Source of the DNA: the human T2T-CHM13v2.0 reference genome, Homo sapiens
DNA length: 64,000 nucleotides
NCBI RefSeq assembly: GCF_009914755.1
Contig: NC_060947.1
Direction: 5' to 3' (one strand)
This document shows, in pieces, positions 5,100 to 56,880 of this stretch (position 1 is the stretch's first letter; every line of letters starts with the position of its first letter). The position numbers and the translations under genes were made by a program. The notes under the pieces are model-generated. The model worked only from the letters and a program-made list of their open reading frames with translations. It was not told the DNA's origin and did no database searches.

Positions 5100-5590
5100 A
5101 AGCCCATGGAACAGGTCTTTGGCCTTGAATTGAAAGAAGTCAACCTTATAGTCATTCTTCTTATGCCTTTATTAGGAAGCTGGATTCCCCCCAATGAGAG
5201 AAGTCTGAGTGGTGATAAGTGATTATCTAAGACCGTTGGTTTCCTAATGACTCTCCTGGGTGTGATCTTCTTGAAGGGCAACTGTCACACTGAAGAGAAA
5301 ATCTGGAAATTCCTGAATACAATGAAGGTGCAGGATAGAAGCTAACACTTCATCTATGGACAGCCAGAAAGCTCATTACCAGAAATTTGGTACAGGAAAA
5401 GTACCTGGAATACTGGCACGTGTCCAATAATTATCCTTCACTCTATGAGTTCCAGCAGGGTCAAAGAGCCCATGCTGAAACCAAAAAGATTAAAATCCTG
5501 GAAGTTTTGGCTAAGATCAATGATACCATCTGTAGTATCTTCCTGAATCTGTATGAAGAGTTTTCGAGAGATGAGAAAGAGCAGGAGTGA
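5100..5590 (+). pseudogene. MAGE-B pseudogene fragment (C-terminal part of the MAGE homology domain), 5'-truncated, with 3'UTR remnant to ~6170
   Basis: Translates to VFGLELKEV..., [30 protein letters not shown]..., RAHAETKKIKILEVLAKIND. Contains stops and frameshifts. Confidence 0.88.
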
Positions 5591-15415: not shown

Positions 15416-16739
15416 TATTGCAAAGATATCCATTCTCCTTAGGTTATTTACAGATATAGTTTTTATCTACAGCTTCCAAGATGACAAACAAGCTAGTGCT
15501 TCTTTCCCATGCCTAAAATTAACCATGGGAAATCTAAAGAAAAAATAAAGAACAATGTCATAAACATCAGTAAAATAACAGAATGAGAACCCCCTGAGAG
15601 ACATTAAGTCTCTGTTGAACCAGTGCTTATATGGCGGCATGCCCTGAAGTGAAAACAAGTCCATAGCCTGCAGTAAGAAACAGATGACAGCATTAGTTGC
15701 AGGAATTATTTTAAAGTTCTGCCTTTGCTTCTTTATGCGTGCCTGGGACAATTATTTTCTACAGCTTCATTTAAAGAATCTGAGGCAACATCTCAGGCGC
15801 CACATGCTGGAATCATGGGGTAATAACCATTAGAACAACACAAACAATTGAGTTTGTTAAAGCAATATGAGTTCAGACATTGTAGTAATAACCACCTAAA
15901 ACCTCTATAGCGAATGAGGGCTGACTTTTTAAATGATCACTGTAATAGAATATGAAACATATACTAAAATAGAAGGGTCACAGTGAAGCACATGTAATAA
16001 GAACATTAATATACTCCTGAAATATTTGATGATGCTGATGTCAGCCAAAAGAAAGCACAGACCAACTGCCATGATAAGGAGTCCCCTTATTTTCTCCTTG
16101 TTGATTTTTGAAGGCTATGGTTGGGAGAAGGGGATGAATTCATATCAGAAAAGGGAAAAATCACAAGGCCTGACAGCAGTCAGTGGGTGGACCTTAATTG
16201 ACTGCTGAAAGGCTGCACATTTCAGAAGAGAGGAGGGCTCAGCATGTCTCCTCCTTTCCCTAACTCCACAGCATAACTAACTGGCTGCAGCTAGGTCTAG
16301 GAGGCCCCAGACAGTAGTGGCCAGGTGAATTGCACATGAGGAGTCTCAGGAAGTTGAAGTCTAGTCTGAGAGGGTGTCCTCAAGTCAGTAGAGGGAAGGA
16401 ACATGGCGCAAGAATGAAGCCACGACACTGAATGAGAGCTGAGGGCAAAGTCCATTCTGGGAGAGGGGGTTCCACAGAGCCCCACCCCTACTGTCAGTCT
16501 TGGAAGGTCCTGGCATGGCTTCCCAGCTCCTACTACTTCCCAGCTCAGTACTTCCTACTCAGGACTCTCAGGGAATAAGATCCTCCGTCTCCTGTTGACT
16601 GACTCAGCTCAGCAGACAGAGAAGTCCAAGGGTCCACAAAGAGCCCCTGAAAGAATTTTATGTGAGCTTTTCGGCGGCCACCCAGTCCACAGAACACATG
16701 GAGAGTGACAGAGCCCCACCCCTGCTGTTATGTTGGGAA

Positions 16740-16870
16740 GGCCAGGTGGGCATGGCCGGAAGTAGTTCCTCCTGACTTCCGCGTAGAAAAGCGTCCACAC
16801 CGGAGGCCTTGGTCTGAAAAGTGCTGCGTCAGGTGAGCGGAAGAGGGCATCCCAGATCTTCTCAGGTATC
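16740..16870 (+). promoter_or_regulatory. Putative MAGEB6B promoter/first exon: inverted ETS pair and splice donors
   Basis: CCGGAAGT 16756-16763 and ACTTCCGC 16775-16782, local CpGs. Donors CAG|GTGAGC (16832/16833) and CAG|GTATCT (16865/16866). Paralogous to 49710-49845. Confidence 0.55.
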
Positions 16871-17913
16871 TTATGGGTATCTTGACCTAGAACTCGGGGG
16901 ACATTCCCCAACAACTGCAACCCCCTACCTCCTAAAATAGGCAGCTCCAGAGAGCCCTGCCCCATCCTGCCCCTAAGATGGTAACTGAGGAGTCCCCAAG
17001 CATGGCCGTTAGGCCCAAAGTCCGTTCACTTTTTCTGTGGGGTTGAAGAGCATGAAGTCCTCGGTCCAAGGCTGGTGGACTCAGGTCAGTAGACAGAGAA
17101 ATCTCAGGCACTACATAGCTAAAAAGAAGACTCTGCTTAAGACTGAGGGGACTCCATGCCCATGCCGCAGCACGGGTTGCACCAAACTACGCCCCTGATG
17201 TCAGCCTGGGGGTCCGGGCAGGTCTCTAGAGAGAGGTGTGTTCTCACTTTGTCCCCGTGAGAGTCAGAGAGGTAGGTCCCTGGTTGTAAGAAGATGGCAG
17301 CAGGTCAGCGAGGGTGATTTCCAAGTGGTGGGAAGAGTCAGGGTGAGGAGTCTGATTACCGTGGGGGTCATTCTCAATATAACAGCAAGTGCATTCAAAT
17401 GCCTCCGCTGCTGTCAGCCCTAGGCGGTCTGGGTGTCCCCGGAAAGAAGTGCTGGGCAGGAGCGCTTCTTTATTTCCTCCTCATTGGTACTGTAAAAATT
17501 CCTAGTGTCAATTTCAGAGCGGCAGAGGGGAATGGGCCTCTGGGACTTGACAACAATTTTTATGATGATCCAGAATAAAAACGGAGAGGACCCCACCTCT
17601 GAACAAAGGGGCCCCCACTGCCAGTCCCTGCTATCACCTCAGTAAGCCCCAAAATGGGCTGTCATGCTATAGTCTAACACTGACTCTTAACTTCCTCCTA
17701 AGTTCGAAGGAGACAAACAGACCAAGCGAACAGGAGTCCTGCGAGTTCCTGGAGCAATTGCTTAATGAAACCTCCAGAAGGGCCCCTGGTTAAAGCCAAG
17801 ATGGTTGCTCTCTGCTGAAGGTGTTGACATGATGTCACTCTCTCCCGTCCAGGTGCCAGCCTTGCCAACCTTTATGCCCACACTCCTACCTGCTGTCATA
17901 GGCCACAGCCACC

Positions 17914-19137
17914 ATGCCTCGGGGTCAGAAGAGTAAGCTCCGTGCCCGTGGGAAACGCCGAGAGACCCATGATCAGCCGCAAGGTCTCACAGGTCCCCAG
18001 GCCACTGCAGAGAAACAAGAAGAGTCTCGCTCTTCGTCATCCTCTTCTGCTGTTTGTCAGGGTGCTCGTCGTAGGTCTTCTGGTTCCTCCGTTCCTCAGG
18101 AGTCTCAGGGAGCTTCACCCACTGGCTATCCTGATGCAGGTGCTTCATGCTCAAAATATGATGTGGCTGCCATGGGTCAAGATGAGAAAAGTCCTAGTAC
18201 CTCCCGTGATGCCTCCGTTTCTCAAGAGTCTCAGGGAGCTTCACCCATTGGCCCTCCTGATGCAGGTATTTCATGCTCAAAATCTGATGAGGCTGCCAAG
18301 GGTCAAAATGAGAAAAGTCCAAGCACCTCCCGTGATGCCTCTGTTCCTCAGGAGTCTCAGGGAGCTTCACCCACTGGCTCGCCTGATGCAGATGTTTCAG
18401 GCTCAAAATCTGATGTGGCTGCCAAGGGTCAAGATGAGGAAAGTTTAAGCTCCTCCAAGAGAGCTGCGTTCTTTACAACCACAGACGGAGATCCTATAAA
18501 AAGGAAGGCAAACAAGATGGTGCAATTCCTGCAGAAGAAGTTTGAGAAGAAAGAGCCCATTTTGAAGGCAGACATGCTGAAGCGTCTCCGCAGACAGTAC
18601 AAGCCATGCTTCCCTGAGATCCTCAAGAGAACCTCCGAACATTTGACGGTGTTCTTTGGCGTTGAATTGAAAGAAACGGATTCCAGCGGCGAGTCCTACA
18701 CCCTTGTCAGCAAGCTGGGTCTCTCCAGTGAAGGAAGTCTGAGTGGTGATAATGCGCTGCCGAAGTCGGGTCTCCTGATGTCGATCCTGGGTTTGATCTT
18801 CATGAGAGGCAACCGTGCCACTGAAGAGGAGGTCTGGAAGTTCCTGGGTCTGTTGGGGATATATGATGGGATCCTGCATTCAATCTATGGGGATGCTCGG
18901 AAGATCATTACTGAAGATTTGGTGCAAGATAAGTACGTGGTTTACCGGCAGGTGTGCAACAGTGATCCTCCATGCTATGAGTTCCTGTGGGGTCCACGAG
19001 CCTATGCTGAAACCACCAAGATGAGAGTCCTGCGTGTTTTGGCCGAGATCAATAACACCAGTCCCGGTTTATACCCACATCTGTATGAAGACGCTTTGAC
19101 AGATGAGGTAGAGAGAGCATTGAGACTGAGAGCTTAA
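17914..19137 (+). CDS. MAGEB6B: Melanoma-associated antigen B6B (MAGEB6 paralog), 407 aa
   Basis: MPRGQKSK N-terminus, complete MAGE homology domain (FGVELKE, GLLM, YEFLWGPRAYAET). Kozak gccaccATG. Splice acceptor ccag| at 17852. Colinear with MAGEB6. Confidence 0.9.
   Translation: MPRGQKSKLRARGKRRETHDQPQGLTGPQATAEKQEESRSSSSSSAVCQGARRRSSGSSVPQESQGASPTGYPDAGASCSKYDVAAMGQDEKSPSTSRDASVSQESQGASPIGPPDAGISCSKSDEAAKGQNEKSPSTSRDASVPQESQGASPTGSPDADVSGSKSDVAAKGQDEESLSSSKRAAFFTTTDGDPIKRKANKMVQFLQKKFEKKEPILKADMLKRLRRQYKPCFPEILKRTSEHLTVFFGVELKETDSSGESYTLVSKLGLSSEGSLSGDNALPKSGLLMSILGLIFMRGNRATEEEVWKFLGLLGIYDGILHSIYGDARKIITEDLVQDKYVVYRQVCNSDPPCYEFLWGPRAYAETTKMRVLRVLAEINNTSPGLYPHLYEDALTDEVERALRLRA
18088..18445 (+). 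repeat. Coding tandem repeat, ~3 x 126 bp (42 aa)
   Basis: Units start at 18088, 18214 and 18340 (SV[P/S]QESQGASP...DEKSPSTSRDA). Confidence 0.93.
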
Positions 19138-19696
19138 GGCAGGGCTGGCACTGTTCCCTTGGCCAGGGCACCTTATGGGGCCATATCCTACAGATCCTCC
19201 CATTTCTAGGGAGGTCTGAAGTAGAATTTTCGCTTTATGTTAGAAGAGAGTAGTGAGCCTTCTAAGTAGTGCAGTATAGTAGAGGCTGGAGGGAACAAGA
19301 TATGTATTTCTTTTGTCTTGTTATACATGAGTAACTTGTAGATTTATGTTTTACCTCCTTGTCAATTTTCAACATTGTTCCTGTTAAGTGAAGGTTTATT
19401 TTGCTTCAGATTATACATTTATCAATAACATAGCTCTCACATTCATGGCCGTTTAATCAATTTGAAAGTTACGGTTTGGGTATTAGTAAAACAAAATCAT
19501 ACACCATTCATATTTTCTTTATAATTCAGAACTAGATAACATGATAATAGAGAAGGGACTTTGATATGAATCTTAAAGAACTCCACAGTAAAATAGTTGA
19601 CATCATAATATGAAGAGAAAGAAAAGGAAAAACAGAAATGTAAAAATTGTTTAATTCTTGGTTTGCCTAATTCGTTTTCCTATTTCTTTTCATATA

Positions 19697-19702
19697 AATA
19701 AA
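19697..19702 (+). terminator. Polyadenylation signal AATAAA (MAGEB6B)
   Basis: Followed by a GT/T-rich tract; conserved in the paralog at 52933. Confidence 0.65.
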
Positions 19703-20749
19703 GGATACCTGGATTTATTTAGGTTATTAAGACTGCCGTTAGTTTGTTTTGTTCTAGTGCACTTCATATTCCATGTTATCTACTGCATCAAAAAACCCCT
19801 CTGATTGGAGGGTGGTATTTTCTGGGTTTAAAATAATCACATGAAATGCAGTGATCAATATAAGCCAGAATGAGTTCACTAAAAACCTTTTTGAAACAAG
19901 GCTGCTAAATTCAAAGAACTTCCATAGGCTTAAACTGTCTCAAATATTTTCAAGATGTGGTAATTTTGTTTCTTAATATATAGTTAGGAAAATTAAAAAT
20001 TAATAATTTGTGTAAAAACATATATTATGGTAACTGTCATTTATGAAAGACTCAGTATTTCCTACTTAGTATGCCATATGTTTTATGGACAGTACTTATA
20101 CCCCAAAATTCCTACAAGATAGGGTTTAGCAGACTCACTTCAAAATGAAGAAATTGCAAATTTCTAAAAGCTCACAAGCTTGTAATTGACAGAGCTGGGA
20201 TTAGATCTCTGGTCTGGATTCATCTAGAGCCCATATTTTTCCAATCCTCTCAGCCTGAGCCAGACTTTGTGTCTTTTAATCCACTTTTCCTCTCACTGCC
20301 CAAAATGCTTACCAGAGCATTAAAAGGACACTGTACCCAAAGCACTTCTTTGGATTCTACAACTAGAGTAATCATAATGCTGAAAAAATGAGTAGTATGA
20401 ATTATGAAAAGAAAAAAATAATACACAGTGACAATATGATCATCTACATATGCAACATTAGATAACCCAATAAGATCAGGAGCTCCCAAAATCATCCTGC
20501 TCTGCCCTTTCCCCATAGAAATTAAATCTCCTCAAAGCAAAGTACATAATAGGCTAAGTCTGGCTGGTGAAGCAAAGGAATAGATCAGGGTGCTTTTTTC
20601 ACTGACAGCCCACCACCTGTCCTGGGCCTCCTGCCTTGTGGTACAGCTTCCCTATCTCATACAGAACCTGGGACAGTGAGCCATTGTCTGCAAGGTTTGC
20701 AGTAGGGAACCTGCTCAAGTGTTTGCAGGTGTATGGCATTTCCCAGCAG

Positions 20750-23345
20750 TGTTAAAGAGTAAGGAGGCATGATGAGAACCCCCATAAATGAAGATTCTGG
20801 AGATCACTGCCTCAGAATATCGGGGTCACAGAAAGACCAGGCCCTGCCTACTCTCAGATCTAGAAGGCCCAAGCTATAGCAGTAAGCTAAAATTTCTCTA
20901 TTTACTCAAGGTTCTCAGGTACATAAGAGTCCTGGTCTAAGGGTGGTGTGCTCTGGTTATTGGGAGGAGGATCTCAGCCTCTGAAAATGATCAAGATGAG
21001 GACTCTGAATGAGAAATGAGGAATTATCCACCCAGAACAGCAGGGGCTCTTAAAGCTATATCTTGCTTTCTGCCTTGGGTGGCCATAGGCAGGGCTATCT
21101 GGTTGAGGTTTCCCCTCATTTTCTTTAGGGCTTCTACTGGTGCCCCAGGGAGATAAAGGCTTTGATCTCATGGCAGTAGCTCCGATTCTGCCCACGAAGG
21201 AGGTCCTCTCAAGCCTGGATTGGATTTAAGGTGAGGACACTGGGGTAGCCAAGGAGAAGCACCCTGACTTCCCCCTCTGGTTTCTCAGTAAAGGAAAAGC
21301 TTTGGCTTCAGGCTGGCAGACTCAGATTAGCAGAGGAAGGAGTTCCACATCCCCAAATCAATGTTAGAAACCTGAGTGAGAACTGAGGGAGCCACTGACT
21401 CCAAAACAGTGGAATCTTGTAGGATTCTGACCCTGCTATTATTCTTCAGAGGATCCTCAATAACTGTGGCCAGATGTGCCTGTTCCTCACTTCCAACTGG
21501 GAGATTCCAGGAAGATATGGCCTTGGTCTGAGGAGTGAGGCCTTGAGTCAGTGGAGGGTAGAGTTTCAGATTTCATTAGGTAGGAGTCAAGGTAAAGATG
21601 CTGAGGGAGGATAGAGGAGACCACTCACCACAGAACAGTGGGAATGCACAGTGTCCTGACCCTAATGTCAGCCCTAGGAGGCCCAGGGCAGAACTCTCAG
21701 GCTGAAGTGCCCCCTCAGTTCCTCTGGGAGTGGTCTCAAGGAAGTGAGAGTCTTAGTCTAATGGGAGCAACCCTAGTCAGCAGAGGATGTTTAATAGGAG
21801 TCACACTGCTGACCCTAAACAGGGATGACGGTACTCCTCCCAGAACAGGTGGAGCCACACGAAGCCCTGCCATTGATGTCTCTCCCTGGCAAACCCAGGA
21901 ATTCTGAGATGATGAGTCCCACTCATTTCCTTTCAAGGCATCTCAAGGAGGTAAGGCATCTGGTGTAAGGGGTCAGCCTGAGATTACCACAGGGATAAAT
22001 TCCAGGTCATGCAAACAGTCAAGCTGAGGACCATGAAGATGGAAGGAACCACTCAAATCATAACAGTACAGACAACGCAGAATCCCTTAGGTACTGTCAG
22101 CTGTAGGTGATCATAAGGCTTTCGTGCTCAGATGAGGAAACTCTTACATCCTTCTTGGTAGTATTAGGGAATTAAAGGCTGTACATAAGCAGACAGGCCT
22201 CTAGGTCTTGGGAATGTTCATTGTGAGGACCCTGAGCAAGGACTGAGGGGAGCAACCAACCTAGAAGAGACAGGAACCCACATAGCCCCACCCATTTCAG
22301 CCCTCGAAATCCCCAGCACGAATAACCCGAATATGTCAGCCACTCACTCCTCTCCCTGGAGGACTCATGTCACTAGAGGGAGGAGTCAGAGATCCTGGCT
22401 GAGAAGTCAAGGAGTCACAAACCCCTGAACAGTTGGGTCCCATAGAGTCTTTCTCCTGCTATTAGTTCTCAGAATCCCCTAATAGCTCCAGCGAGGTCAC
22501 TTTGACTTCCACGTCTGGGGACTCCAGGTGGTGAGGAACTTGGTCTGAGGCTGGCCATCTCATCATAGAGAACATTACCAGGTCGAGCCAGGAGTCAGGG
22601 CAAGGACAATGAGGAAGGAGCAGAACATGAAACCTCCTATAACAATGGAGGCAGCACATAATCTCTCCCCTACTGTTAGGCCTGGCAGATTCAGGGATAA
22701 ATGTCAGGCAGAGCAGAGGCACCCCTCAATTCCCCCTCAGGGTGACAGAGAAATGAGGGCCTTATTCTGAGGGGGATGGTATCAGGCCACGAAAGGGAGA
22801 AATTGTGGGCACTGTCACGAGTCAAAATGAAGAATCTGAGCGAGGACTGGTGAGGCCAACCCTCATGAGGCCCAAAAGCGCCTGCCACAGCTTTCTGCCT
22901 TGGGAGACTCCAGGCAGGTATGGCCAAATAAGGCTGCCCTCCCTTCCCTCTACTAGGTCTCAGAGAGTTCTGGGCCTTGCTATGAGGAGATGCCTTCAAG
23001 TCAAAGAACAGAGGAGCTGCAGGTCCTTCTAGGAGTCAAATTGAGGACCCTTGGTGAAGACTAAGATGATCATACTCCTTCCCCCAATAGAAGGGGCAAC
23101 ATAATGTCCAACCCCCACCCTGGCTTTCAGCATTTGAAAACCCATAGCAGGACTGTCAGGGAGAGGCTTCGCCAATGTTTTACATTGGGTCTAAGGGAGA
23201 TGAGCTCCTTAGTAAGAAAGTGAAGCCACGATAGAACAGAAGAGGGGGTCCCAGGCCCTACACGGAGTCAATATGAGAACTCTGAATAAGGACTGAGGGT
23301 CAGTGATCCCAAGACAGAAAGGATCCCCCAAAGTTGTCACCCCTG
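20750..23345 (+). repeat. Degenerate ~200-230-bp array of MAGE 5'-region units
   Basis: Recurring ggccttggtctgagg ... gagtcaa(g)gtgaggac-ctgag ... gactgaggg ... tgtcagccct motifs. Confidence 0.6.
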
Positions 23346-27289: not shown

Positions 27290-28240
27290 ATAGGCCACTG
27301 CAGTAGAAGGATTATTTTTCTGAGTATTCTTCAGACTTTGCTGGCTGTTAGGACACACAGCTCTCCCTAGGCCCCTCGGATCACCCCATTCACCATGAAT
27401 AGTGCTGTAAATGTTTTGTGTACAAAGACTGATGAAGGGGTGAACAGCCACGAGGATGAAAATCCAAGCATTTCACAAGCACCACCTGCCCCTGAAAACT
27501 CATGCAAATACCTTCTAACCAAGGAGGTGGCTTTGTTTATGCACAACTGCATATGTTTACTTTGTTCAAATATAAAATTAGACTTTTATCATGAAAGCAC
27601 ACATTCTAAAAAATGTCAGCAAAAATTATAAGGACCACATCTCCATAATCCAATGGAGAGCCTCTGACATGTGGAGTTGCTCATTGGCTTTGACTCAACG
27701 GATTTTAACTCTATGAAGCATCTCTATACCCTTGTCAGCAAATTGGAACTCATCAATGATGGGAGTTGGAGTGCTGGTAGGGGTTGCCAAAGAGCAGATT
27801 GTTGATGATTCTTCTTAGTGTGACCTTCATGAAGAGCACCTGCACCACTAAAGAGAAGGTCTGAGAGTTTCTAAATATGATAAATATATATGCTGGGACA
27901 AAGCATTTCATCGGTAGGTACTTCAGAAAGCTCATCACCAGAAATTTTACACAGGAAAGGTACCTGGAGTACCAGCAAGTTCCCAGTAGTGATCCTACAT
28001 GCTATAAATTCCTGTGGTATCCAGGAGCTCACGGTTAAATCAGCAAGAATAAAGGTCCTAAAATTTTTGTCTAAGGCCAATGATATGTCACTGTTTCTTT
28101 CTATTCCTGTGTGAAAAGTCATTGTGAGATGAGTAAAAGAGAGCCCAAGCCAGTGTTGCAGCCAGGATTGGCACTATCATTATGGCCAGGGCATGTTCCA
28201 GGGCCATGTACAACAGCCTTTTACACCCCTAGTAAAGTCT
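27290..28240 (+). pseudogene. Highly decayed MAGE-B pseudogene, with 3'UTR remnant to ~28830
   Basis: TKTDEGVNSHEDENPSISQA linker; tacccttgtcagcaaattgg; aaagctcatcaccaga; tacctggagtaccagcaagttcccagtagtgatcct; ttcctgtgg. Many indels. Confidence 0.82.
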
Positions 28241-48480: not shown

Positions 48481-49709
48481 TTTTTTTTTTAAAAAAAAGC
48501 AGTATTAACAACAGCAAAACAACAAAAATGCGAACCTTGAGAGATGGTCAGTTTGTATTGAACAAGAATGGGTGTGTGGGCAGGTAGGGGCATGAGCTGA
48601 AGTAGAGACAGGTCTGTGGCCTACAACAGACGCAGATAACGGAATTGGCTAGAGGAAAAGCTTTAAAACTTTGGTCTTTGCTTCTTTCACTGTGCCATTG
48701 GACAATGCATTTTTTTTTCTGCTTCACTAAAGGAAATTCAGTCAGAAACTTGGACCCTATGTGCCAGTTCCATGGGGTAATATTGCCACAGCAAAAACAT
48801 CTGGGTAGGCTGAAGAAGTATGAATCCAGACACTGTGCTAATAACTACCTGAAACTTCTTTAGTGGAAGTGGACTGGCCTTTAAATTCGTATTATTTTAA
48901 TATAATATAAAGAATGGACTAAATTAGGATAGCAAATATTGCAGTGAGTCACACAAGATAATGGTAGAAATTCATTCATGAAGGTGTTGAATACAGACAC
49001 TGATGTCAGCCAAGAGAGAAGTCCCAGACATAGCTATCAGGCTAAGAAGTCTTCTCACTTTCTCCTTATGAATTTTACAGGATCTAGTCAGAGGAAGGGG
49101 ATGAATTTACATCAGAAAATGGAGAAAACTGAGACCCTGCCAGCAGTCAATGTGAGGACCCTGAGTGAGGACTGAGGGGCTCCACATATCAGAAGAGACA
49201 AGAGTGCCCCCCAAATCTCCCTTCATTCCCCGATCTTGCATCACAACTTAATAGCAGCAGCCAGGTTTAGGAGGCCCCAGGCAGTAGTGGCCAGGTGAGG
49301 TGTAACTGAATTGCACATGAGGAGTCTCAGGAAGTTGAAGTCTAGTCTGAGAGGGTGTCCTCAAGTCAGTAGAGGGGACATGGCAAGAATGAAGCGACGA
49401 CACTGAGTGAGGGCTGAGGGCAAAGTCCATTCCAAAAAGGGGGTCTCACAGAGCTCCACCCCTACTGTCAGTCTTGGAAGGTCCCGGCATGGCTCCCGAG
49501 CTCAGGCTGCACCTTACTTCCAACTCTGGACTCTCAGGGAATGAGAGCCTCTATCTCCGGTTGACTGATTCAGCTCAACAGATAGAGAAGTCCAAGGGTC
49601 CGCGAAGAGCCCCTGAAAGAACTTTATGTGAGTTCCCTGGAATCTGCTGCACCCACAGAACACAAGGGGGAGTAACAGAGCCCTGCAGCTACTGTTACGC
49701 AGGGAGCGC

Positions 49710-49845
49710 CAGGTGGGCGTGGCCGGAAGTGGTTCCTCTTGACTTCCACCTAATAAAGGGGTCTGAGCCGGTCGCCTGAGTCTGAAAAGTGCTGTCACGT
49801 CAGCGGAAGGAGGCGTCCCAGATCTTCTCAGCTGTCTTGGTGGGT
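49710..49845 (+). promoter_or_regulatory. Putative MAGEB6 promoter and non-coding exon 1
   Basis: GC box gggcgtgg, ETS CCGGAAGT 49723-49730, CpG cluster, candidate donor TTG|GTGGGT at 49839/49840. Confidence 0.6.
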
Positions 49846-50509
49846 ATCCTGACCTAGAACGGGGGGCATTCCCCGACAACTTCAACCCCCTTCCCCCGAA
49901 GAAAGGCGGCTCCACAGAGCCCTGCCCCAACCTGCCCCGACCTGGTCCCTGAGGAGTCCCCAAACATGGCTGTTAGGCCCAAAGTCCATTCATTTTTTTC
50001 CGTCGTGTTGAAGAACATGAAGGCCTCGGTCCAAGGCTTGTGGACCCAGGTCAGTAGAGGGAGAAATCTCAGGCCCTACATAGTTAAGAGGACCCTCCTT
50101 AGAATTGAGGGAGGGGATTCCATGTCCCGTAACGGGTTGCACCGAACTCTGCCCTTGACGTTAGCCTGGGGGTCCGGGCAGGTCTCTAGAGACTGAGGTG
50201 CATTCTCACTTTGTCCCTGTGAGAGTCAGAGAGGTAGGCCCCTGGTTGTAAGGAGATGGCAGCAGGTCAGTGAGGGTGATTTCCAGGTTGTGGGAAGAGT
50301 CAGGGTGAGGAGTCTAATTACTGTGAGGAGCATTCTCACTATAACTGGAAGAGCACTCAAATGCCTCCGCTGTTGTCAGCCCTAGGTGGTCTGGGTGTCC
50401 CCGGAATGAAGTGTTGGGCAGAAGTGCTTCCTTATTTCCTCCGGGTTAAAATTCCTACTGTCAATTTCAGAGTGGCAGAAGGAAATGGGCCTCTGGGTCT
50501 TGTCAACAA

Positions 50510-50804
50510 TTTTTTTTTATTATACTTTAAGTTTTAGGGTACATGTGCACAATGTGCAGGTTTGTTACATATGTATACATGTGCCATGCTGGTGTGCTGC
50601 ACCCATTAACTCGTCATTTAGCACTAGGTATATCTCCTAATGCTATCCCTCCCCCCTCCCCCCACCCCACAACAGTCCTCGGAGTGTGATGTTCCCCTTC
50701 CTGTGTCCATGTGTTCTCACTGTTAACTTCCCACCTATGAGTGAGAACATGCGGTGTTTGGTTTTTTGTCCTTGCGATAGTTTGCTGAGAATGATGGTTT
50801 CCAG
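50510..50804 (-). mobile_element. 5'-truncated L1PA3/4-like 3' end in the MAGEB6 intron
   Basis: L1 3'UTR sequence. The empty site is visible in the paralog (caacaatttttatgatgatcc, ~17550). Confidence 0.93.
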
Positions 50805-51157
50805 TTTTAATGATGATCCTGAATGTAAACAGAGAGGATCCAACCCCTGAACAGAGGGGCCCCCACTGCCAGCCCCTGCTGTCACCTCAGTAAGCCCCAA
50901 AATGGGCTGTCATGCTATAGTCTAATACTCTAACTTCCTCCTGAGTTTGAAGGAGACAAACTGACCAGGAGAAAAGGAGTCCTGTGGGTTCCTAGAGCAG
51001 CTGTTCTGCGGAAACCTGCAGAAGGGGCCCTAGTTAAAGCCAAGATGGTCGCTCTCTGCTGAAGATATTGACGTGACGTCACTCTCTCCCATCCAGGTGC
51101 CAGCCTTCCTAGTCTTCCTACCCACACTCCTACCTGCTGTCACAGGCCACAGCCATC

Positions 51158-52381
51158 ATGCCTCGGGGTCACAAGAGTAAGCTCCGTACCTGTGAGAAAC
51201 GCCAAGAGACCAATGGTCAGCCACAGGGTCTCACGGGTCCCCAGGCCACTGCAGAGAAGCAGGAAGAGTCCCACTCTTCCTCATCCTCTTCTCGCGCTTG
51301 TCTGGGTGATTGTCGTAGGTCTTCTGATGCCTCCATTCCTCAGGAGTCTCAGGGAGTGTCACCCACTGGGTCTCCTGATGCAGTTGTTTCATATTCAAAA
51401 TCCGATGTGGCTGCCAACGGCCAAGATGAGAAAAGTCCAAGCACCTCCCGTGATGCCTCCGTTCCTCAGGAGTCTCAGGGAGCTTCACCCACTGGCTCTC
51501 CTGATGCAGGTGTTTCAGGCTCAAAATATGATGTGGCTGCCAACGGCCAAGATGAGAAAAGTCCAAGCACTTCCCATGATGTCTCCGTTCCTCAGGAGTC
51601 TCAGGGAGCTTCACCCACTGGCTCGCCTGATGCAGGTGTTTCAGGCTCAAAATATGATGTGGCTGCCGAGGGTGAAGATGAGGAAAGTGTAAGCGCCTCA
51701 CAGAAAGCCATCATTTTTAAGCGCTTAAGCAAAGATGCTGTAAAGAAGAAGGCGTGCACGTTGGCGCAATTCCTGCAGAAGAAGTTTGAGAAGAAAGAGT
51801 CCATTTTGAAGGCAGACATGCTGAAGTGTGTCCGCAGAGAGTACAAGCCCTACTTCCCTCAGATCCTCAACAGAACCTCCCAACATTTGGTGGTGGCCTT
51901 TGGCGTTGAATTGAAAGAAATGGATTCCAGCGGCGAGTCCTACACCCTTGTCAGCAAGCTAGGCCTCCCCAGTGAAGGAATTCTGAGTGGTGATAATGCG
52001 CTGCCGAAGTCGGGTCTCCTGATGTCGCTCCTGGTTGTGATCTTCATGAACGGCAACTGTGCCACTGAAGAGGAGGTCTGGGAGTTCCTGGGTCTGTTGG
52101 GGATATATGATGGGATCCTGCATTCAATCTATGGGGATGCTCGGAAGATCATTACTGAAGATTTGGTGCAAGATAAGTACGTGGTTTACCGGCAGGTGTG
52201 CAACAGTGATCCTCCATGCTATGAGTTCCTGTGGGGTCCACGAGCCTATGCTGAAACCACCAAGATGAGAGTCCTGCGTGTTTTGGCCGACAGCAGTAAC
52301 ACCAGTCCCGGTTTATACCCACATCTGTATGAAGACGCTTTGATAGATGAGGTAGAGAGAGCATTGAGACTGAGAGCTTAA
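51158..52381 (+). CDS. MAGEB6: Melanoma-associated antigen B6, 407 aa
   Basis: Recognised protein MPRGHKSKLRTCEKRQETNGQPQG...EVERALRLRA with complete MAGE domain. Acceptor ccag| at 51096. Confidence 0.95.
   Translation: MPRGHKSKLRTCEKRQETNGQPQGLTGPQATAEKQEESHSSSSSSRACLGDCRRSSDASIPQESQGVSPTGSPDAVVSYSKSDVAANGQDEKSPSTSRDASVPQESQGASPTGSPDAGVSGSKYDVAANGQDEKSPSTSHDVSVPQESQGASPTGSPDAGVSGSKYDVAAEGEDEESVSASQKAIIFKRLSKDAVKKKACTLAQFLQKKFEKKESILKADMLKCVRREYKPYFPQILNRTSQHLVVAFGVELKEMDSSGESYTLVSKLGLPSEGILSGDNALPKSGLLMSLLVVIFMNGNCATEEEVWEFLGLLGIYDGILHSIYGDARKIITEDLVQDKYVVYRQVCNSDPPCYEFLWGPRAYAETTKMRVLRVLADSSNTSPGLYPHLYEDALIDEVERALRLRA
51332..51690 (+). repeat. Coding tandem repeat, ~3 x 126 bp (42 aa)
   Basis: Units at 51332, 51458 and 51584. 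Confidence 0.93.
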
Positions 52382-52932
52382 GGCAGGGCTGGCACTATTT
52401 CCTTGGCCAGGGCACCTTATGGGGCCATATCCTACAGATCCTCCCATTTCTAGGGAGGTCTGAAGTAGAATTTTCACTTTATGTTAGAAGAGAGTAGTGA
52501 GCTTTCTAAGTAGTGCAGTATAGTAGAGGCTGGAGGGAACAAGATATGTATCTTTCTTTTGTCTTGTTACACATGAGTAACTTGCAGATTTATGTTTTAT
52601 CTCTGTCAGTTATCAACATTGTTCCTGTTAAGTGAAGGTTTATTTTGCTTCAGATTATACAATTATCAATAACATAGCTCTCACATTCATGGCTGTTTAA
52701 CCAATCTGAAAGTTACGGTTTGGGAATTAATAAAACAAAGTCATACAACACATTTTCTTTGTAATTGAGAACTAGATAACATGGTAACAGAGAATTGATT
52801 TTCATATGAATCTTAACTCCACAGTAAAATAGTTGACATCATAATATGAAGAGAAAGAAAAGGAAAAACAGAAATGTAAAAGTTGTTTAATTCTTGGTTT
52901 GCCTAATTCGTTTTCCTATTTCTTTTCATACA

Positions 52933-52938
52933 AATAAA
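52933..52938 (+). terminator. Polyadenylation signal AATAAA (MAGEB6)
   Basis: Followed by GT/T-rich downstream sequence. Confidence 0.7.
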
Positions 52939-53989
52939 GGATACCTGGATTTATTTAGGTTATTAAGACTGCCGTTAGTTTGTTTTGTTCTAGTGCACTT
53001 CATATTCCATGTTATCTACTGCATCAAAAAACCCCTCTGATTGGAGGGTGGTATTTTCTGGGTTTAAAATAATCACATGAAATGCAGTGATCAATATAAG
53101 CCAGAATGAGTTCACTAAAAACCTTTTTGAAACAAGGCTGCTAAATTCAAAGAACTTCCATAGGCTTAAACTGTCTCAAATATTTTCAAGATGTGGTAAT
53201 TTTGTTTCTTAATATATAGTTAGGAAAATTAAAAATAATTTGTGTAAAAACACATATTATGATATCTGTCATTTATGAAAGACTCAGTATTTCCTACTTA
53301 GTATGCCATATGTTTTATGGACAGTACTTATACCCCAAAATTCCTACAAGATAGGATTTAGCAGACTCACTTCAAAATGAAGAAATTGCAAATTTCTAAA
53401 AGCTCACAAGCTTGTAATTGACAGAGCTGGGATTAGATCTCTGGTCTGGATTCATCCAGAGCCCACATTTTTCCAATCCTCTCAGCCTGAGCCAGACTTT
53501 GTGTCTTTTAATCCATTTTTCCTCTCACTGCCCAAAATGCTTACCAGAGCATTAAAAGGACACTGTACCCAAAGCACTTCTTTGGATTCTACAACTAGAG
53601 TAATCATAATGCTGAAAAAATGAGTAGTATGAATTACGAAAAGAAAAAAATAATACACAGTGACAATATGATCATCTACATATGCAACATTAGATAACCC
53701 AATAAGATCAGGAGCTCCCAAAATCATCCTGCTCTGCCCTTTCCCCATAGAAATTAAATCTCCTCAAAGCAAAGTACATAATAGGCTAAGTCTGGCTGGT
53801 GAAGCAAAGGAATAGATCAGGGTGCTTTTTTCACTGACAGCCCACCACCTGTCCTGGGCCTCCTGCCTTGTGGTACAGCTTCCCTATCTCATACAGAACC
53901 TGGGACAGTGAGCCATTGTCTGCAAGGTTTGCAGTAGGGAATCTGCTCAATTGTTTGCAGGTGTGTGACATTTCCCAGCAGTCTTAAAG

Positions 53990-56880
53990 AGAAAGGAGGC
54001 ATGATGAGAACCCCCATAAATGAGGATTCTGGAGATCACTGCCTCAGAATATCGGGGTCACAGAAAGACCAGGCCCTGCCTACTCTCAGATCTAGAAGGC
54101 CCAAGCTATAGCAGTAAGCTAAAATTTCTCTATTTACTCAAAGTTCTCAGGTACATAAGAGTCCCGGTCTAAGGGTAATATGCTCTGGTTACTGGGAGGA
54201 GGATCTCAGCCTCTGAAAATGATCAAGATGAGGACTCTGAATGAGAAATGAGGAATTATCCACCCAGAACAGTAGGGGCTCTTAAAGTTATATCTTGCTT
54301 TCTGCCTTGGGTGGCCATAGGCAGGGCTATCTGGTTGAGGTTCCCCCTCATTAAGGCTTCTACTGGTGCCCCAGGGAGATAAAGCTTTGATCTCATGGCA
54401 GTAGCTCCAATTCTGCCCACGAAGGAGGTCCTCTCAAGCCTGGATTGGATTTAAGGTGAGGACACTGGGGTAGCCAAGGAGAAGCACCCTGACTTCCCCC
54501 TCTGGTTTCTCAGTAAAGGAAAAGCTTTGGCTTCAGGCTGGCAGACTCAGATTAGCAGAGGAAGGAGTTCCACATCCCCAAATCAATGTTAGAAACCTGA
54601 GTGAGAACTGAGGGAGCCACTGACTCCAAAACAGTGGAATCTTGTAGGATTCTGACCCTGCTATTATTCTTCAGAGGATCCTCAATAACTGTGGCCAGAT
54701 GTGCCTGTTCCTAACTTCCAACTGGGAGATTCCAGGAAGATATGGCCTTGGTCTGAGGAGTGAGGCCTTGAGTCAGTGGAGGGTAGAGTTTCAGATTTCG
54801 TTAGGTAGGAGTCAAGGTAAAGATGCTGAGGAAGGATAGAGGAGACCACTCACCACAGAACAGTGGGAATGCACAGTGTCCTGACCCTAATGTCAGCCCT
54901 AGGAGGCCCAGGGCAGAACTCTCAGGCTGAAGTGCCCCCTCAGTTCCTCTGGGAGTGGTCTCAAGGAAGTGAGAGTCTTAGTCTAATGGGAGCAACCCTA
55001 GTCAGCAGAGGATGTTTAATAGGAGTCACACTGCTGACCCTAAACAGGGATGACGGTACTCCTCCCAGAACAGGTGGAGCCACACAAAGCCCTGCCATTG
55101 ATGTCTCTCCCTGGCAAACCCGGGAATTCTGAGATGATGAGTCCCACTCATTTCCTTTCAAGGCATCTCAAGGAGGTAAGGCATCTGGTCTAAGGGGCCA
55201 GCCTCAGGTTACCACAGGGATAAATTCCAGGTCATGCAAACAGTCAAGCTGAGGACCGTGAGGATGGAAGGAACCACCCAAATCATAACAGTACAGACAA
55301 CGCAGTATCCCTCAGGTACTGTCAGCTGTAGGTGACCATAAGGCTTTCATGCTCAGATAAGGAAACTCTTACATCCTTCTTGGTAGTCAAGGAAACTCGT
55401 ATTTCCTTCTTGGTAGTCATAGGGAATTAAAGGCTGTACATAAGCAGACAGGCCTCTAGGTCTTAGGAATGTTCATTGTGAGGACCCTGAGCAAGGACTG
55501 AGGGGAGCAACCAACCTAGAAGAGACAGGAACCCACATAGTCCTGCCCCTTTCAGCCCTGGAAATCCCCAGGCACGAATAACCCGAGTATGTCAGCCACT
55601 CATTCCTCTCCCTGGAGGACTCATGTCACTGGAGGGAGGAGTCAGAGATCCTGGCTGAGTGAGAACTCAAGGAGTCACAAACCCTTGAACAGTGGAGTCC
55701 CACAGAGTCTTTCTCCTGCTATTAGTTCTCAGAATCCCCTAATAGCTCCAGCAAGATCACTTTGACTTCCACGTCTGGGGACTCCAGGTGGTGAGGAACT
55801 TGGTCTGAGGCTGGCCATCTCATCATAGAGAACATTACCAGGTCGAGCCAGGAGTCAGGGCGAGGACCATGAGGAAGGAGCAGAACATGAAACCTCCTAT
55901 AACAATGGAGGCAGCACATAATATCTCCCCTACTGTTAGTCCTGGCAGATTCAGGGATAAATGTCAGGCAGAGCAGAGGCACCCCTCAATTCCCCCTCAG
56001 GGTGACAGAGAAATGAGGGCCTTATTCTGAGGGGGATGGTATCAGGCCACGAAAGGGAGAAATTGTGGGCACTGTCACGAGTCAAAATGAAGAATCTGAG
56101 CGAGGACTGGTGAGGCCAACCCTCATGAGGCCCAAAAGCGCCTGCCACAGCTTTCTGCCTGGGGAGACTCCAGGCAGGTATGGCCAAATAAGGCTGCCCT
56201 CCCTTCCCTCTACTAGGTCTCAGAGAGTTCTGGGCCTTGCTATGAGGAGATGCCTTCAAGTCAAAGAACAGAGGAGCTGCAAGTCCTTCTAGGAGTCAAA
56301 TTGAGGACCCTTGGTGAAGACTAAGATGATCATACTCCTTCCCCCAGTAGAAGGGGCAACATAATGTCCAACCCCCACCCTGGCTTTCAGCATTTGAAAA
56401 CCCATAGCAGGACTGTCAGGGAGAGGCTTCGCCCATGTTTTATACTGGGTCTAAGGGAGGTGAGCTACTTAGTAAGAAAGTGAAGCCACGATAGAACAGA
56501 AGAGGGGGTCCCAAGCCCTACACAGAGCCAATATGAGAACTCTGAATAAGGACTGAGGGTCCAGTGATCCCAAGACAGAAAGGATCCCCCAAGGTTGTCA
56601 CCCCTGACAAGGGTGGTAGGCTGAGCCACTGTCTCACTTTTTGTGGGTTCCAGGGGGCTTCAAAGTGTCAACTTCAGAGCAGAACAGGAAAGAGGTACCA
56701 GGCTCTGTCAACAGTTAGCATAATGATCTGAAATATCATCTGAGTGTTCTCCCCAACCCCAGAACACAGGGATCTCCACAGTTAATCTCTGCTGTCACTC
56801 CAGTAGGCCCCAAGCTGGGTTGCAAGCTGCAGCCTAAGACTCACTCTAAGTTGCTTTACCAGGTTCTCAGGGGACAGACT
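53990..56880 (+). repeat. Degenerate array of MAGE 5'-region units upstream of the 57-kb pseudogene
   Basis: Same motifs as 20750-23345, running into the penultimate-exon/acceptor region (~56860-57020), which resembles 50940-51100. Confidence 0.6.

What the first reader, a model, noticed from the sequence alone, without database searches (positions are those of the whole stretch)
18520..19056. MAGE domain is split: amino-acid-biased divergence next to a perfectly homogenised block
Hand comparison with MAGEB6 (offset +33244). In the 108 codons 18520-18843 I count 20 codons with amino-acid changes and only 3 with synonymous changes. The linker just upstream (SKRAAFFTTTDGDPIKRKANKM vs SQKAIIFKRLSKDAVKKKACTL) is more divergent still. 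Then 18839-19046 is identical at the nucleotide level, followed by a cluster of replacements (EIN vs DSS). Inference: diversifying selection on the first winged-helix half, which may resist gene conversion that homogenises the second half. MAGE domains are known adaptors for RING E3 ligases, so the paralogs may have different partners.
Basis: partly seen in the sequence, partly recalled or inferred. Interest (0 to 1): 0.72.

Follow-up and report, generated by a model that had tools for sequence, protein, structure and literature searches.

The report
MAGEB6/MAGEB6B gene-conversion mosaic, selection unproven
The two neighbouring human MAGEB6 genes are an old duplicate pair whose 3' part has been repeatedly copied from one to the other in apes, which explains the "split" domain; the excess of amino-acid changes in the other part is real as a count but not statistically distinguishable from neutral drift.

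Summary

dN/dS is above 1 but not significantly. Nei-Gojobori gives 2.2 (Fisher p=0.22); codon ML gives 2.76 (p=0.072). Five of the replacement changes are CpG transitions.

The identical block is only the sixth-longest identical run in a roughly 4.4 kb tract of about 2% divergence (18839 to ~23200). That tract runs through the stop codon, the 3'UTR and intergenic DNA.

Primate proteins show the C-terminal part differs between paralogs in monkeys (18-36 of 99) but not in apes (0-9 of 99). In gibbons the first half is nearly homogenised too (3 of 106). So the first half does not generally resist conversion.

The persistent island is the 66-nt patch 18456-18521: 44% divergent in human, and 10-15 of 22 residues differ in 11 of 11 paralog comparisons.

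The human breakpoint falls inside helix alpha5 of WH-B, not between the winged helices.

A 2026 paper reports positive selection here. It sampled paralogs at random onto a species tree, and 24 of 28 of its sites are paralog differences.

The parts
16035..23345 (+). MAGEB6B copy of the ~7.3 kb direct duplicon
   Evidence: blastn of the window halves: 16035-17561 vs 49000-50514 at 81.0% (1555 columns) and 17554-23345 vs 50802-56606 at 94.2% (5836 columns)
49000..56606 (+). MAGEB6 copy of the duplicon. It carries an extra ~295-bp insertion near 50500-50810 relative to the B6B copy
   Evidence: a 295-nt indel event in the 5' flank
17914..19137 (+). MAGEB6B coding sequence, 407 codons. N-terminus 1-189 predicted disordered; MAGE homology domain about 194-406
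   Evidence: ORF; Pfam MAGE_N E=1.2e-32 and MAGE E=6.1e-16 at 205-369; PDB MAGE-B1 6R7T E=8e-77; AF2 model; Foldseek MAGE-A11 E=1e-19
51158..52381 (+). MAGEB6 coding sequence, 407 codons
18456..18521 (+). Hyper-divergent patch (residues ~182-203: end of the disordered linker plus the N-terminal half of helix alpha1). It is the one segment that stays paralog-specific in all primates compared
   Evidence: 29 of 66 nt differ (43.9%), picked out as its own segment by segmentation at K>=3. 10-15 of 22 residues differ in 11 of 11 paralog comparisons. Trans-simian paralog clades with support 92/87
18520..18843 (+). Intermediate divergence
   Evidence: 20 replaced and 3 synonymous-only codons; omega 2.2-2.8, not significant; 25 of 317 nt = 7.9%; helices from AF2
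18839..23200 (+). Low-divergence (about 2%) tract, read as the product of recurrent interlocus gene conversion. It covers codons 309-407, the stop codon, the 3'UTR and about 3.5 kb beyond
   Evidence: 4 of 299 and 100 of 4042 differences. Over-dispersed: index 2.27 over 43 bins. Zero synonymous differences in codons 311-407
18839..19046 (+). It is the sixth-longest identical run of the tract
   Evidence: Longer runs of 325, 304, 303, 253 and 220 nt, all noncoding
19047..19052 (+). EIN/DSS cluster (residues 378-380). I/S and N/S are shared with other ape B6 proteins and so predate the human lineage; only E to D is human-specific
   Evidence: Ape B6 shows E-I/G/S/S-N/S/S/N and B6B orthologs mostly EIN (table)
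19400..19563 (+). 3'UTR island of higher divergence inside the low tract, read as a stretch that escaped the latest conversion
   Evidence: 17 of 160 = 10.6%, versus 13 of 559 before it and 74 of 3622 after it; alignment shown

Best explanation
MAGEB6B and MAGEB6 are an old direct duplicate pair, 33.2 kb apart, that predates the split of New World and Old World simians. Both are kept as open 407-codon genes and evolve at roughly the neutral rate (omega about 1) along their whole length.

The 'split' MAGE domain in human is a historical mosaic made by recurrent, patchy, non-allelic gene conversion between the copies.
- From about 18839 to about 23200 the copies were homogenised recently. In apes the direction was at least partly B6B into B6.
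- The stretch 18522-18838 belongs to an older stratum, about 8% divergent.
- The 5' flank and N-terminus are older still, about 13-15%.
- A 66-nt patch at the linker/alpha1 junction (18456-18521) has never been homogenised in any lineage examined.

The excess of replacements over synonymous changes in 18520-18843 is what a near-neutral, fast-evolving cancer-testis gene with 3 synonymous hits can give by chance. It is partly made of CpG transitions.

Shown: the counts, the divergence steps, the extent of the tract into noncoding DNA, and the monkey-versus-ape contrast.
Inferred: conversion as the mechanism, its direction, and the dating.
For: (1) Divergence profile and segmentation: 16200-18455 13.9%, 18456-18521 43.9%, 18522-19563 5.3%, 19564-23200 2.0%.

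(2) The low tract is mostly noncoding, so constraint cannot explain it. Zero of about 68 synonymous sites differ in codons 311-407.

(3) Paralog amino-acid differences in residues 309-407:
- human 5 of 99, orangutan 9 of 99, gibbon 0 of 69 (within Hylobates) and 3 of 99 (Nomascus B6B vs Hylobates B6);
- Old World monkeys 18 of 99 twice;
- New World monkeys 27-36 of 99 (5 pairs).

(4) Ape B6 proteins carry the B6B-type state at 10-11 of 12 monkey-defined diagnostic positions in 309-407, but the B6-type at 7 of 10 in the linker. The two strict ancient B6 markers in that part (320M, 378K) are absent from all 5 ape B6 proteins, while the linker marker 190L is kept.

(5) Partition trees. The linker gives two trans-simian paralog clades (92/87). 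In 309-407 gibbon B6 and B6B pair (99/95) and great-ape B6 and B6B group (82/85). The AU test rejects a catarrhine B6 clade including gibbon, p=0.0014.

(6) Both genes sit 26-33 kb apart in 7 species in Table S2 of PMC13616518, so copy number and order were kept.

Published human pair: 1.28, ns.

(8) The ORFs are maintained. There are 0 indel events in the 925 aligned CDS nt of the high-divergence part versus 22 in 1671 nt of the 5' flank. Only 1.7% of 20000 simulations with 119 random substitutions stay stop-free.
Against:
- If 18522-18838 was itself homogenised later than the 5' flank, its low dS (0.044) is the proper yardstick, and dN (0.097) exceeds it.
- For great apes alone, the protein AU test does not reject orthology in 309-407 (p=0.13), nor in 203-308 (p=0.30-0.34). 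The intermediate stratum is therefore inferred from nucleotide divergence only.
- Helices alpha4-alpha5 change fast even among B6B orthologs (18 changes on 29 sites).
- PAML site models in PMC13616518 favour positive selection (M1 vs M2 2dlnL 58-156 in 5 of 6 iterations), though with mixed paralogs.
- Monkey-defined 'diagnostic' sites may partly reflect monkey-specific change. Only 4 strict ancient markers exist.
- Some primate proteins are gene models that could be chimeric. One example is the gorilla B6 entry with a largely B6B-type N-terminus.
Confidence: 0.72

Rival explanations
1. Real diversifying selection acts on alpha1-alpha5 of the MAGE domain (partner- or substrate-binding surfaces). 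It drives the paralogs apart and removes convertant alleles, so the divergent first part is protected while the neutral rest is homogenised.
For: - Omega 2.2-2.8 in 18520-18843 and 4.5 in codons 203-247.
- By my reading of the table, five B6B-lineage and three human-only B6 replacements in 203-310.
- Six differences lie in alpha4/alpha5 or their connector, and alpha4/alpha5 line the ligase-peptide groove of MAGEA4.
- Alpha4-alpha5 and the linker are the fastest segments among B6B orthologs (18 on 29 sites and 19 on 22 sites).
- The linker patch stays paralog-specific in 11 of 11 comparisons, although conversion reaches it from the 3' side in gibbons and apparently from the 5' side in Saimiri and Plecturocebus (N-terminus 0.08-0.09).
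- Published site tests and the MAGE-A3/A6 precedent.
Against: - No test reaches significance (p=0.072-0.22).
- Five CpG transitions are among the replacements. Dropping them gives omega of about 1.7 (arithmetic).
- The first half is homogenised in gibbons (3 of 106), so there is no general protection.
- The first and second halves change at equal amino-acid rates within orthologs (p=0.68).
- The published hotspot coincides with paralog-diagnostic sites: 24 of 28 against 4.8 expected, P=2e-18. It disappears in the one PAML iteration with the best likelihood. Its method samples paralogs at random onto a species tree.
- In the patch, synonymous divergence is also very high (pS 0.49), which amino-acid selection alone does not explain.
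Confidence: 0.2
2. MAGEB6B is a decaying or unconstrained copy, and the replacements are simply relaxed constraint in one copy.
For: Whole-gene omega is about 1. Several human-B6B-only residues are at positions otherwise invariant in the primates aligned (215P, 291I, 309K). The annotated transcript starts exactly at the ATG. The counterpart of the MAGEB6 exon-1 donor reads AT instead of GT in the B6B copy.
Against: - 407-codon ORF with 0 indels against 22 indel events in the flank.
- Only 1.7% of simulations stay stop-free.
- B6B-type proteins of 407 aa are predicted in many catarrhines.
- Replacements are spread over both copies: B6 has its own human-only changes at 203A, 224C, 242Q and 378D.
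- The fold is predicted with pLDDT 80-95 across the domain.
Confidence: 0.04
3. The step reflects two duplications of different age, or an unequal crossover that made a hybrid gene, rather than gene conversion.
For: A single sharp step (support interval 18653-18845) and a long 3' tract that ends with the duplicon at about 23200-23345 are also what a crossover or a later partial re-duplication would give.
Against: - Two copies at conserved spacing in 7 species.
- Monkeys have both genes with distinct C-terminal parts.
- The tract is a patchwork: index of dispersion 2.27, a 10.6% island at 19400-19563, and old EIN/SS markers inside it.
- Tract ends differ among human, bonobo, gorilla, orangutan and gibbon.
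Confidence: 0.04

Closest known systems
MAGE-A3/MAGE-A6 on an X-linked palindrome (Katsura & Satta 2011, PMC3112145; passages read)
   Same: A type I MAGE paralog pair that is nearly identical through gene conversion, except for a diverged stretch in the coding region. dN/dS is near 1 (0.9). The authors' interpretation is selection against homogenisation.
   Different: A3/A6 lie on inverted palindrome arms and the diverged island is about 2% over 673 bp at the 5' end. MAGEB6/B6B are direct repeats 33 kb apart and outside palindromes (Table S2). Strata range from 2% to 44%, and the persistent island is only 66 nt.
MAGEB6 'ampliconic cluster' in PMC13616518 (GBE 2026; passages and Tables S2, S8-S10 read)
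   Same: The same two genes. [quoted passage not shown]
   Different: It presents MAGEB6 as the clearest case of two clean clades and describes no conversion mosaic for it. 'GARD' does not occur in the text. Its site and branch tests draw one random copy per species onto the species tree, which mixes the two old paralogs.
Interlocus (non-allelic) gene conversion and concerted evolution of segmental duplicates. General knowledge, recalled.
   Same: An abrupt change of paralog divergence regardless of coding status, species-specific sharing of residues between paralogs, and variable tract ends.
   Different: Nothing unusual, except the very small and very old unconverted island at the linker.
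MAGE homology domain adaptors of RING ligases (MAGEA4-RAD18, PMC10987633, passages read; MAGE-B1 structure 6R7T)
   Same: Tandem winged-helix fold, with alpha4/alpha5/alpha8 forming a variable peptide groove that binds the ligase.
   Different: No partner is known here for MAGEB6 or MAGEB6B. No binding was tested.

Membership tests
Type I MAGE protein (MAGEB subfamily) | MAGE homology domain and MAGE_N by profile | tested here: met
   PF01454 E=6.1e-16 (B6B) and 9.1e-14 (B6). PF12440 E about 1e-32. All above the curated cut-offs.
Type I MAGE protein (MAGEB subfamily) | Tandem winged-helix fold like solved MAGE structures | tested here: met
   PDB sequence hit MAGE-B1 6R7T E=8e-77. AF2 domain pLDDT about 80-95. 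Foldseek: MAGE-A11 6WJH E=1e-19 and 6R7T TM(target) 0.80.
Type I MAGE protein (MAGEB subfamily) | Germline- or testis-restricted expression | not testable with these tools
Interlocus gene-conversion tract | Step in paralog divergence that ignores the coding/noncoding boundary | tested here: met
   12.4% to 1.3% inside the CDS, continuing at 2.5% for 4 kb of noncoding DNA. lnL gain 170. Segmentation.
Interlocus gene-conversion tract | Phylogenetic incongruence between partitions (paralogs group by species or clade in the tract and by paralog outside it) | tested here: inconclusive
   The linker tree groups by paralog (92/87). In 309-407 the gibbon copies pair (99/95) and the AU test rejects orthology with gibbon included (p=0.0014). 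For great apes alone p=0.13. These are protein data only.
Interlocus gene-conversion tract | Divergent state retained in lineages without the event | tested here: met
   Residues 309-407 differ at 18 of 99 (two Old World monkey pairs) and 27-36 of 99 (five New World monkey pairs), against 0-9 of 99 in apes.
Domain under positive (diversifying) selection | dN/dS significantly above 1 in the partition | tested here: not met
   NG86 2.22, Fisher p=0.22. GY94 2.76, LRT p=0.072. CpG transitions supply 5 replacement changes.
Domain under positive (diversifying) selection | Replacement rate above a neutral yardstick of the same history | tested here: inconclusive
   dN is 0.097. The yardsticks are the 5' flank 0.148, the 3'UTR island 0.106 and local dS 0.044. 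Which yardstick shares the region's history is unknown.
Domain under positive (diversifying) selection | Ortholog-only, recombination-aware site or branch-site test | not testable with these tools
   No primate nucleotide sequences could be fetched. Proteins only.
Island kept by selection against homogenisation (MAGE-A3/A6 type) | Island more divergent than the DNA on both sides, and persistent across species | tested here: met
   18456-18521 is 43.9% divergent, between 13.9% and 5.3%. 10-15 of 22 residues differ in 11 of 11 comparisons. Whether selection or a heterology barrier keeps it was not tested.

The most novel reading that the evidence does not exclude
The 66-nt linker/alpha1 patch (18456-18521) may be a paralog-identity determinant, possibly together with the alpha4-alpha5 groove differences. 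On this reading it has been actively protected for more than 40 million years against gene conversion reaching it from both sides, because it gives MAGEB6 and MAGEB6B different ligase or substrate partners in the male germline. The human WH-A/alpha4-alpha5 replacements would then be a second, ongoing round of the same divergence after an ape-stem homogenisation.
Probability: 0.2. Interest if true: 0.55.

Novelty: new member of a known kind. Interest (0 to 1): 0.3.

Why it matters
It gives a concrete, checkable map of how one X-linked cancer-testis gene pair is shaped by conversion.

It shows that the eye-catching N:S imbalance is not evidence of selection on its own.

It flags that the published 'positively selected hotspot' for MAGEB6 largely coincides with fixed paralog differences, and arose under a sampling scheme that mixes paralogs. 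The claim of adaptive evolution for this family therefore still needs an ortholog-only, breakpoint-aware test.

If the small linker island is truly protected, it points to the residues to swap when asking whether the two proteins have different partners.

Tried and rejected
- **Compensated frameshift as the cause of the linker divergence.** Rejected. Gapped alignments do not restore identity, and the other two frames of both copies contain stops.
- **Ectopic conversion of the patch from another human MAGEB gene.** Not supported. Against 12 other MAGEB loci of the same genome, both versions are 23-39 of 57-66 identical, with no favoured donor. The segment is hypervariable family-wide.
Abandoned as decisive once the region proved significantly less diverged than the upstream DNA (p=0.0034), which suggests a different history.
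- **AU tests on 99-106-residue protein partitions.** Inconclusive for great apes (p=0.13) and for 203-308 (p=0.30-0.34).
- **Strict 'ancient marker' definition.** Gave only 4 positions, too few for a map.
Could not be run. No tool returns primate nucleotide sequences. The protein database is clustered at 90% identity, so chimpanzee and gorilla B6B were not separately available.
- **Rows dropped from the trees: 7 of 35.** These were the ENA fragment P0035, the two Macaca mulatta entries (P0005 near-identical and P0009 closely similar to P0003), P0018, P0025, the truncated P0015 and P0040.
Full report
**1. The observation**

The two annotated coding sequences (17914-19137 and 51158-52381) are both 1224 nt. 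They align without gaps at offset +33244 and differ at 119 positions.

The differences flanking the identical run are at 18838 and 19047, so 18839-19046 is identical. EIN/DSS is 19047, 19049 and 19052. The 22-residue linker differs at 15 of 22 residues.

**2. Is the imbalance more than chance?**

- Nei-Gojobori: Nd 23.0 on 253.2 sites and Sd 3.0 on 70.8 sites. dN is 0.097, dS 0.044 and omega 2.22, with Fisher p=0.22.
- One-sided binomial for at least 23 of 26 changes being replacements: p=0.15.
- Pairwise Goldman-Yang codon likelihood written for this purpose: omega 2.76, kappa 2.7, 2dlnL=3.23 against omega=1, p=0.072.
- Other partitions by the same method: whole gene 1.22 (p=0.38), N-terminus 0.89, linker 1.47 (p=0.54).
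- CpG context: of the 26 nucleotide differences in the region, 5 are CpG transitions and 2 are CpG-context transversions. All seven are replacements. Without the five transitions omega is about 1.7 (arithmetic).

The partition was chosen after seeing the data.

**3. What the 'homogenised block' is**

The duplicon is about 7.3 kb: 16035-23345 versus 49000-56606.

| Segment | Differences | Divergence | Indel events |
|---|---|---|---|
| 5' flank 16200-17913 | 247 of 1671 | 14.8% | 22 |
| CDS up to 18838 | 115 of 925 | 12.4% | 0 |
| CDS 18839-19137 | 4 of 299 | 1.3% | 0 |
| 3' flank 19138-23200 | 100 of 4042 | 2.5% | 10 |

The 208-nt identical run is only the sixth-longest in the low tract. Runs of 325, 304, 303, 253 and 220 nt lie in noncoding DNA. 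The block is simply the first gap between differences in a tract of about 4.4 kb that ignores the stop codon. Constraint cannot explain it.

A single change-point is best at 18654, with a 2-lnL support interval of 18653-18845. With three or more change-points the segmentation becomes:
- 16200-18455: 13.9%
- 18456-18521: 43.9%
- 18522-19563: 5.3%
- 19564-23200: 2.0%

The low tract is over-dispersed (index 2.27 over 43 bins). It contains a 3'UTR island at 19400-19563 with 17 of 160 differences, 10.6%. It is therefore a patchwork of events and not one tract.

That upstream segment is 16200-18455, 308 of 2213, and includes the N-terminal coding part. The Fisher test as run used 26 of 319 and gave p=0.0034. 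The region is close to the 3'UTR island. At the nucleotide level the 'divergent half' is thus an intermediate stratum and not an accelerated one. The high omega comes from a low dS rather than a high dN.

**4. Primate proteins**

One database search returned B6- and B6B-type proteins from apes, Old World monkeys and New World monkeys. I aligned 33 of them with the two human proteins.

Paralog differences by partition. Nine of the eleven pairs are within one species; the Nomascus/Hylobates and Callithrix/Saguinus pairs are cross-genus stand-ins:

| Partition | Apes | Old World monkeys | New World monkeys |
|---|---|---|---|
| Residues 309-407 | human 5 of 99; orangutan 9 of 99; Hylobates 0 of 69; Nomascus B6B vs Hylobates B6 3 of 99 | Cercocebus 18 of 99; Colobus 18 of 99 | 27-36 of 99 (five pairs) |
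| Residues 203-308 | human 19 of 106; orangutan 17; Hylobates 10; Nomascus vs Hylobates 3 of 106 | 17-26 | 21-31 |
| Linker 181-202 | 14-15 of 22 | 14-15 of 22 | 10-14 of 22 |

Taken together, the linker differs at 10-15 of 22 residues in all 11 pairs.

Three conclusions follow:
- The C-terminal part is homogenised in apes only.
- The first part is also nearly homogenised in gibbons.
- Only the linker patch is never homogenised.

Further support:
- At positions that distinguish the two monkey paralogs, ape B6 proteins carry the B6B-type state at 10-11 of 12 positions in 309-407, and the B6-type at 7 of 10 in the linker. In 203-308 they are mosaics, with 6-11 B6B-type and 4-6 B6-type of 16.
- Human and bonobo B6 have the B6B-type state at 281 and 283 where gorilla (and, at 281, orangutan) keeps the B6 type (residues ~279-283 in the alignment).
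- Under a strict definition only 4 ancient B6 markers exist. The two in 309-407 are lost from all five ape B6 proteins and the linker one is kept.

Trees of 28 rows (7 of 35 dropped, listed under Tried and rejected) gave the following:
- The linker gives two paralog clades spanning New and Old World simians (92/87).
- In 309-407 gibbon B6 and B6B pair (99/95) and great-ape B6 and B6B group (82/85).
- The AU test rejects a catarrhine B6 clade when gibbon B6 is included (p=0.0014), but not for great apes alone (p=0.13).
- For 203-308 orthology is not rejected (p=0.30-0.34).

The ape homogenisation is therefore well supported by the monkey/ape contrast and the human nucleotide step. The direction (B6B into B6) and an ape-stem event over 203-308 are inferences.

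By recalled great-ape divergences, 2% would place the last homogenisation roughly in the great-ape or African-ape ancestor. I did not test this.

**5. Does the first half evolve faster within orthologs?**

Fitch counts on the species tree:

| Clade | 203-310 | 311-407 | Linker | alpha4-alpha5 (285-313) | N-terminus |
|---|---|---|---|---|---|
| B6B (9 sequences) | 39 changes on 108 sites | 31 on 97 (p=0.68) | 19 on 22 | 18 on 29 | 81 on 180 |
| B6 (8 sequences) | 54 on 108 | 54 on 97 | 16 on 22 | 13 on 29 | 93 on 180 |

The B6 figures are confounded by conversion. The two halves do not differ. The fast spots are the linker and alpha4-alpha5.

Polarising the 20 human differences in 203-310 from the table (my reading of it):
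- About 5 are B6B-lineage-only: 215P, 245T, 247F, 291I, 309K.
- 3 are human-only in B6: 203A, 224C, 242Q. All three are in CpG context.
- 4 are shared by some apes' B6: 228, 235, 271, 301.
- About 8 are older paralog differences.

In EIN/DSS, only E to D is human-specific. I/S and N/S are shared with other ape B6 proteins, so they predate the human lineage.

**6. Structure**

The domain matches MAGE-B1 6R7T by sequence (E=8e-77).

An AlphaFold2 model from an 88-row alignment has residues 1-189 disordered and the domain at pLDDT about 80-95. Helices are at 194-211, 218-223, 227-248, 285-297, 304-313, 328-338, 361-366, 369-379 and 388-406, with a hairpin at 250-266. Foldseek finds the MAGE structures.

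In MAGEA4, WH-A is alpha1-3 and WH-B is alpha4-8. The RAD18 peptide binds a variable groove lined by alpha4, alpha5 and alpha8 (PMC10987633, passages read).

The human breakpoint (residue 309) is therefore inside alpha5 of WH-B and not between the winged helices. Six of the human differences fall there or in the connector between the two helices: 291, 293, 294, 298, 301 and 309. This keeps the 'different partners' idea plausible, but nothing here tests binding.

**7. The linker patch**

- 29 of 66 nt differ.
- It is not a frameshift.
- Neither version is closer to any of 12 other human MAGEB loci.
- The two versions are about as far from each other (37 of 66 identical) as from other MAGEB genes (up to 39 of 66).
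- Synonymous divergence is also very high there: pS 0.49, and 4 of the 7 codons with unchanged residues differ.

Amino-acid selection alone does not account for this. Two readings remain:
- It is the only remnant of the original divergence.
- It is a family-wide hypervariable segment that acts as a heterology barrier, or is protected by selection.

I cannot separate these readings.

**8. Are both genes real?**

There are no indels in the CDS against 22 events in the equally diverged 5' flank. About 12 would be expected in 925 nt (arithmetic). Only 1.7% of 20000 simulations with 119 random substitutions stay free of stops. Both ORFs are maintained, so omega near 1 is not pseudogene decay.

**9. 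What is in print**

PMC13616518 (GBE 2026; passages and supplementary Tables S2, S8, S9 and S10 read) treats these two genes as the 'MAGEB6 cluster'. It reports:
- The human pair: dS 0.080, dN 0.103, omega 1.28, ns.
- A branch test for African great apes significant in 3 of 6 iterations.
- Site tests with M1 vs M2 2dlnL of 58-156 in 5 of 6 iterations.

Its 361-codon site numbers map to human residues by +46. Of its 28 sites at residue 181 or above, 24 fall on the 39 positions of 227 where the human paralogs differ, against 4.8 expected (P=2e-18).

Its methods draw one random copy per species and use the species tree. For two paralogs older than the simians, that turns every fixed paralog difference into repeated change. 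The iteration with the best likelihood (iteration 5, lnL -2485.6) has no M2 site and a single M8 site. This is what an ortholog-only draw would give. I cannot see which copies were drawn, so this is an inference.

The paper does not describe a conversion mosaic for MAGEB6, and 'GARD' does not occur in its text.

The idea of selection against homogenisation in a MAGE pair was published for MAGE-A3/A6 (PMC3112145, passages read). Rapid evolution of type I MAGEs is also in print (PMC3484994, passages read). A search for 'MAGEB6B' found 4 papers, none on its evolution by their titles and abstract starts in the listing.

**10. Verdict**

The counts are right. The homogenisation is real and much larger than described. 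The selection claim is unproven here and only weakly supported in print. The 'resistance' of the first half is contradicted by gibbons.

This is an ordinary conversion mosaic in a fast-evolving cancer-testis gene pair. It has one feature worth a follow-up, the tiny ever-divergent linker/alpha1 patch, and it raises a methodological caveat for the published site tests.

Noticed in passing
window 18080-18450 (and 51320-51700): The N-terminal half holds three tandem 126-nt (42-residue) repeats, seen as off-diagonal blastn hits at +126 and -126 and as three MAGE_N stretches in Pfam. Primate proteins differ by whole units: 361-365 aa B6 in bonobo, orangutan and gibbon, and 449 aa B6B in Pongo and Callithrix. 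Repeat number therefore varies.
   Followed up: partly
window 5118-5584, 27668-28032 and 57214-57975: Three MAGE-like fragments with in-frame stops (tblastn, 39-50% identity to MAGEB6B). Only the middle one is in the gene table, as LOC100420245. The other two are MAGE pseudogene pieces not listed there.
   Followed up: partly
window 16785-16873 and 17852: The counterpart of MAGEB6 exon 1 lies inside the RefSeq 'enhancer' 16792-17991 of the B6B copy. The exon-1 donor GT reads AT there, with a 1-nt deletion, while the exon-2 acceptor is conserved. The annotated MAGEB6B transcript starts exactly at the ATG, so its real 5' exon and promoter are probably not annotated.
   Followed up: partly
window 50500-50810: A ~295-nt insertion is present only in the MAGEB6 copy, in its intron. 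It coincides with a repeat-masked stretch and is probably a SINE inserted after the duplication.
   Followed up: no
P0013 (gorilla 'MAGE family member B6'): The N-terminus carries mostly B6B-type states (13 B6B-type versus 5 B6-type of 20 diagnostic positions) although the linker is B6-type. This is either N-terminal conversion in gorilla or a chimeric gene model from an older assembly.
   Followed up: no
Saimiri and Plecturocebus protein pairs (P0031/P0028, P0040/P0037): The N-terminal regions of the two paralogs differ at only 8-9% of residues, against 19-27% in other species, while the linker still differs at 11-14 of 22. This suggests conversion reaching the linker from the 5' side in these New World monkeys.
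   Followed up: no
window 16298-16420: At K=5 the segmentation isolates a stretch with 2 of 117 differences (1.7%) inside the otherwise 13-30% diverged 5' flank. It may be a small separate conversion patch or a conserved regulatory element.
   Followed up: no
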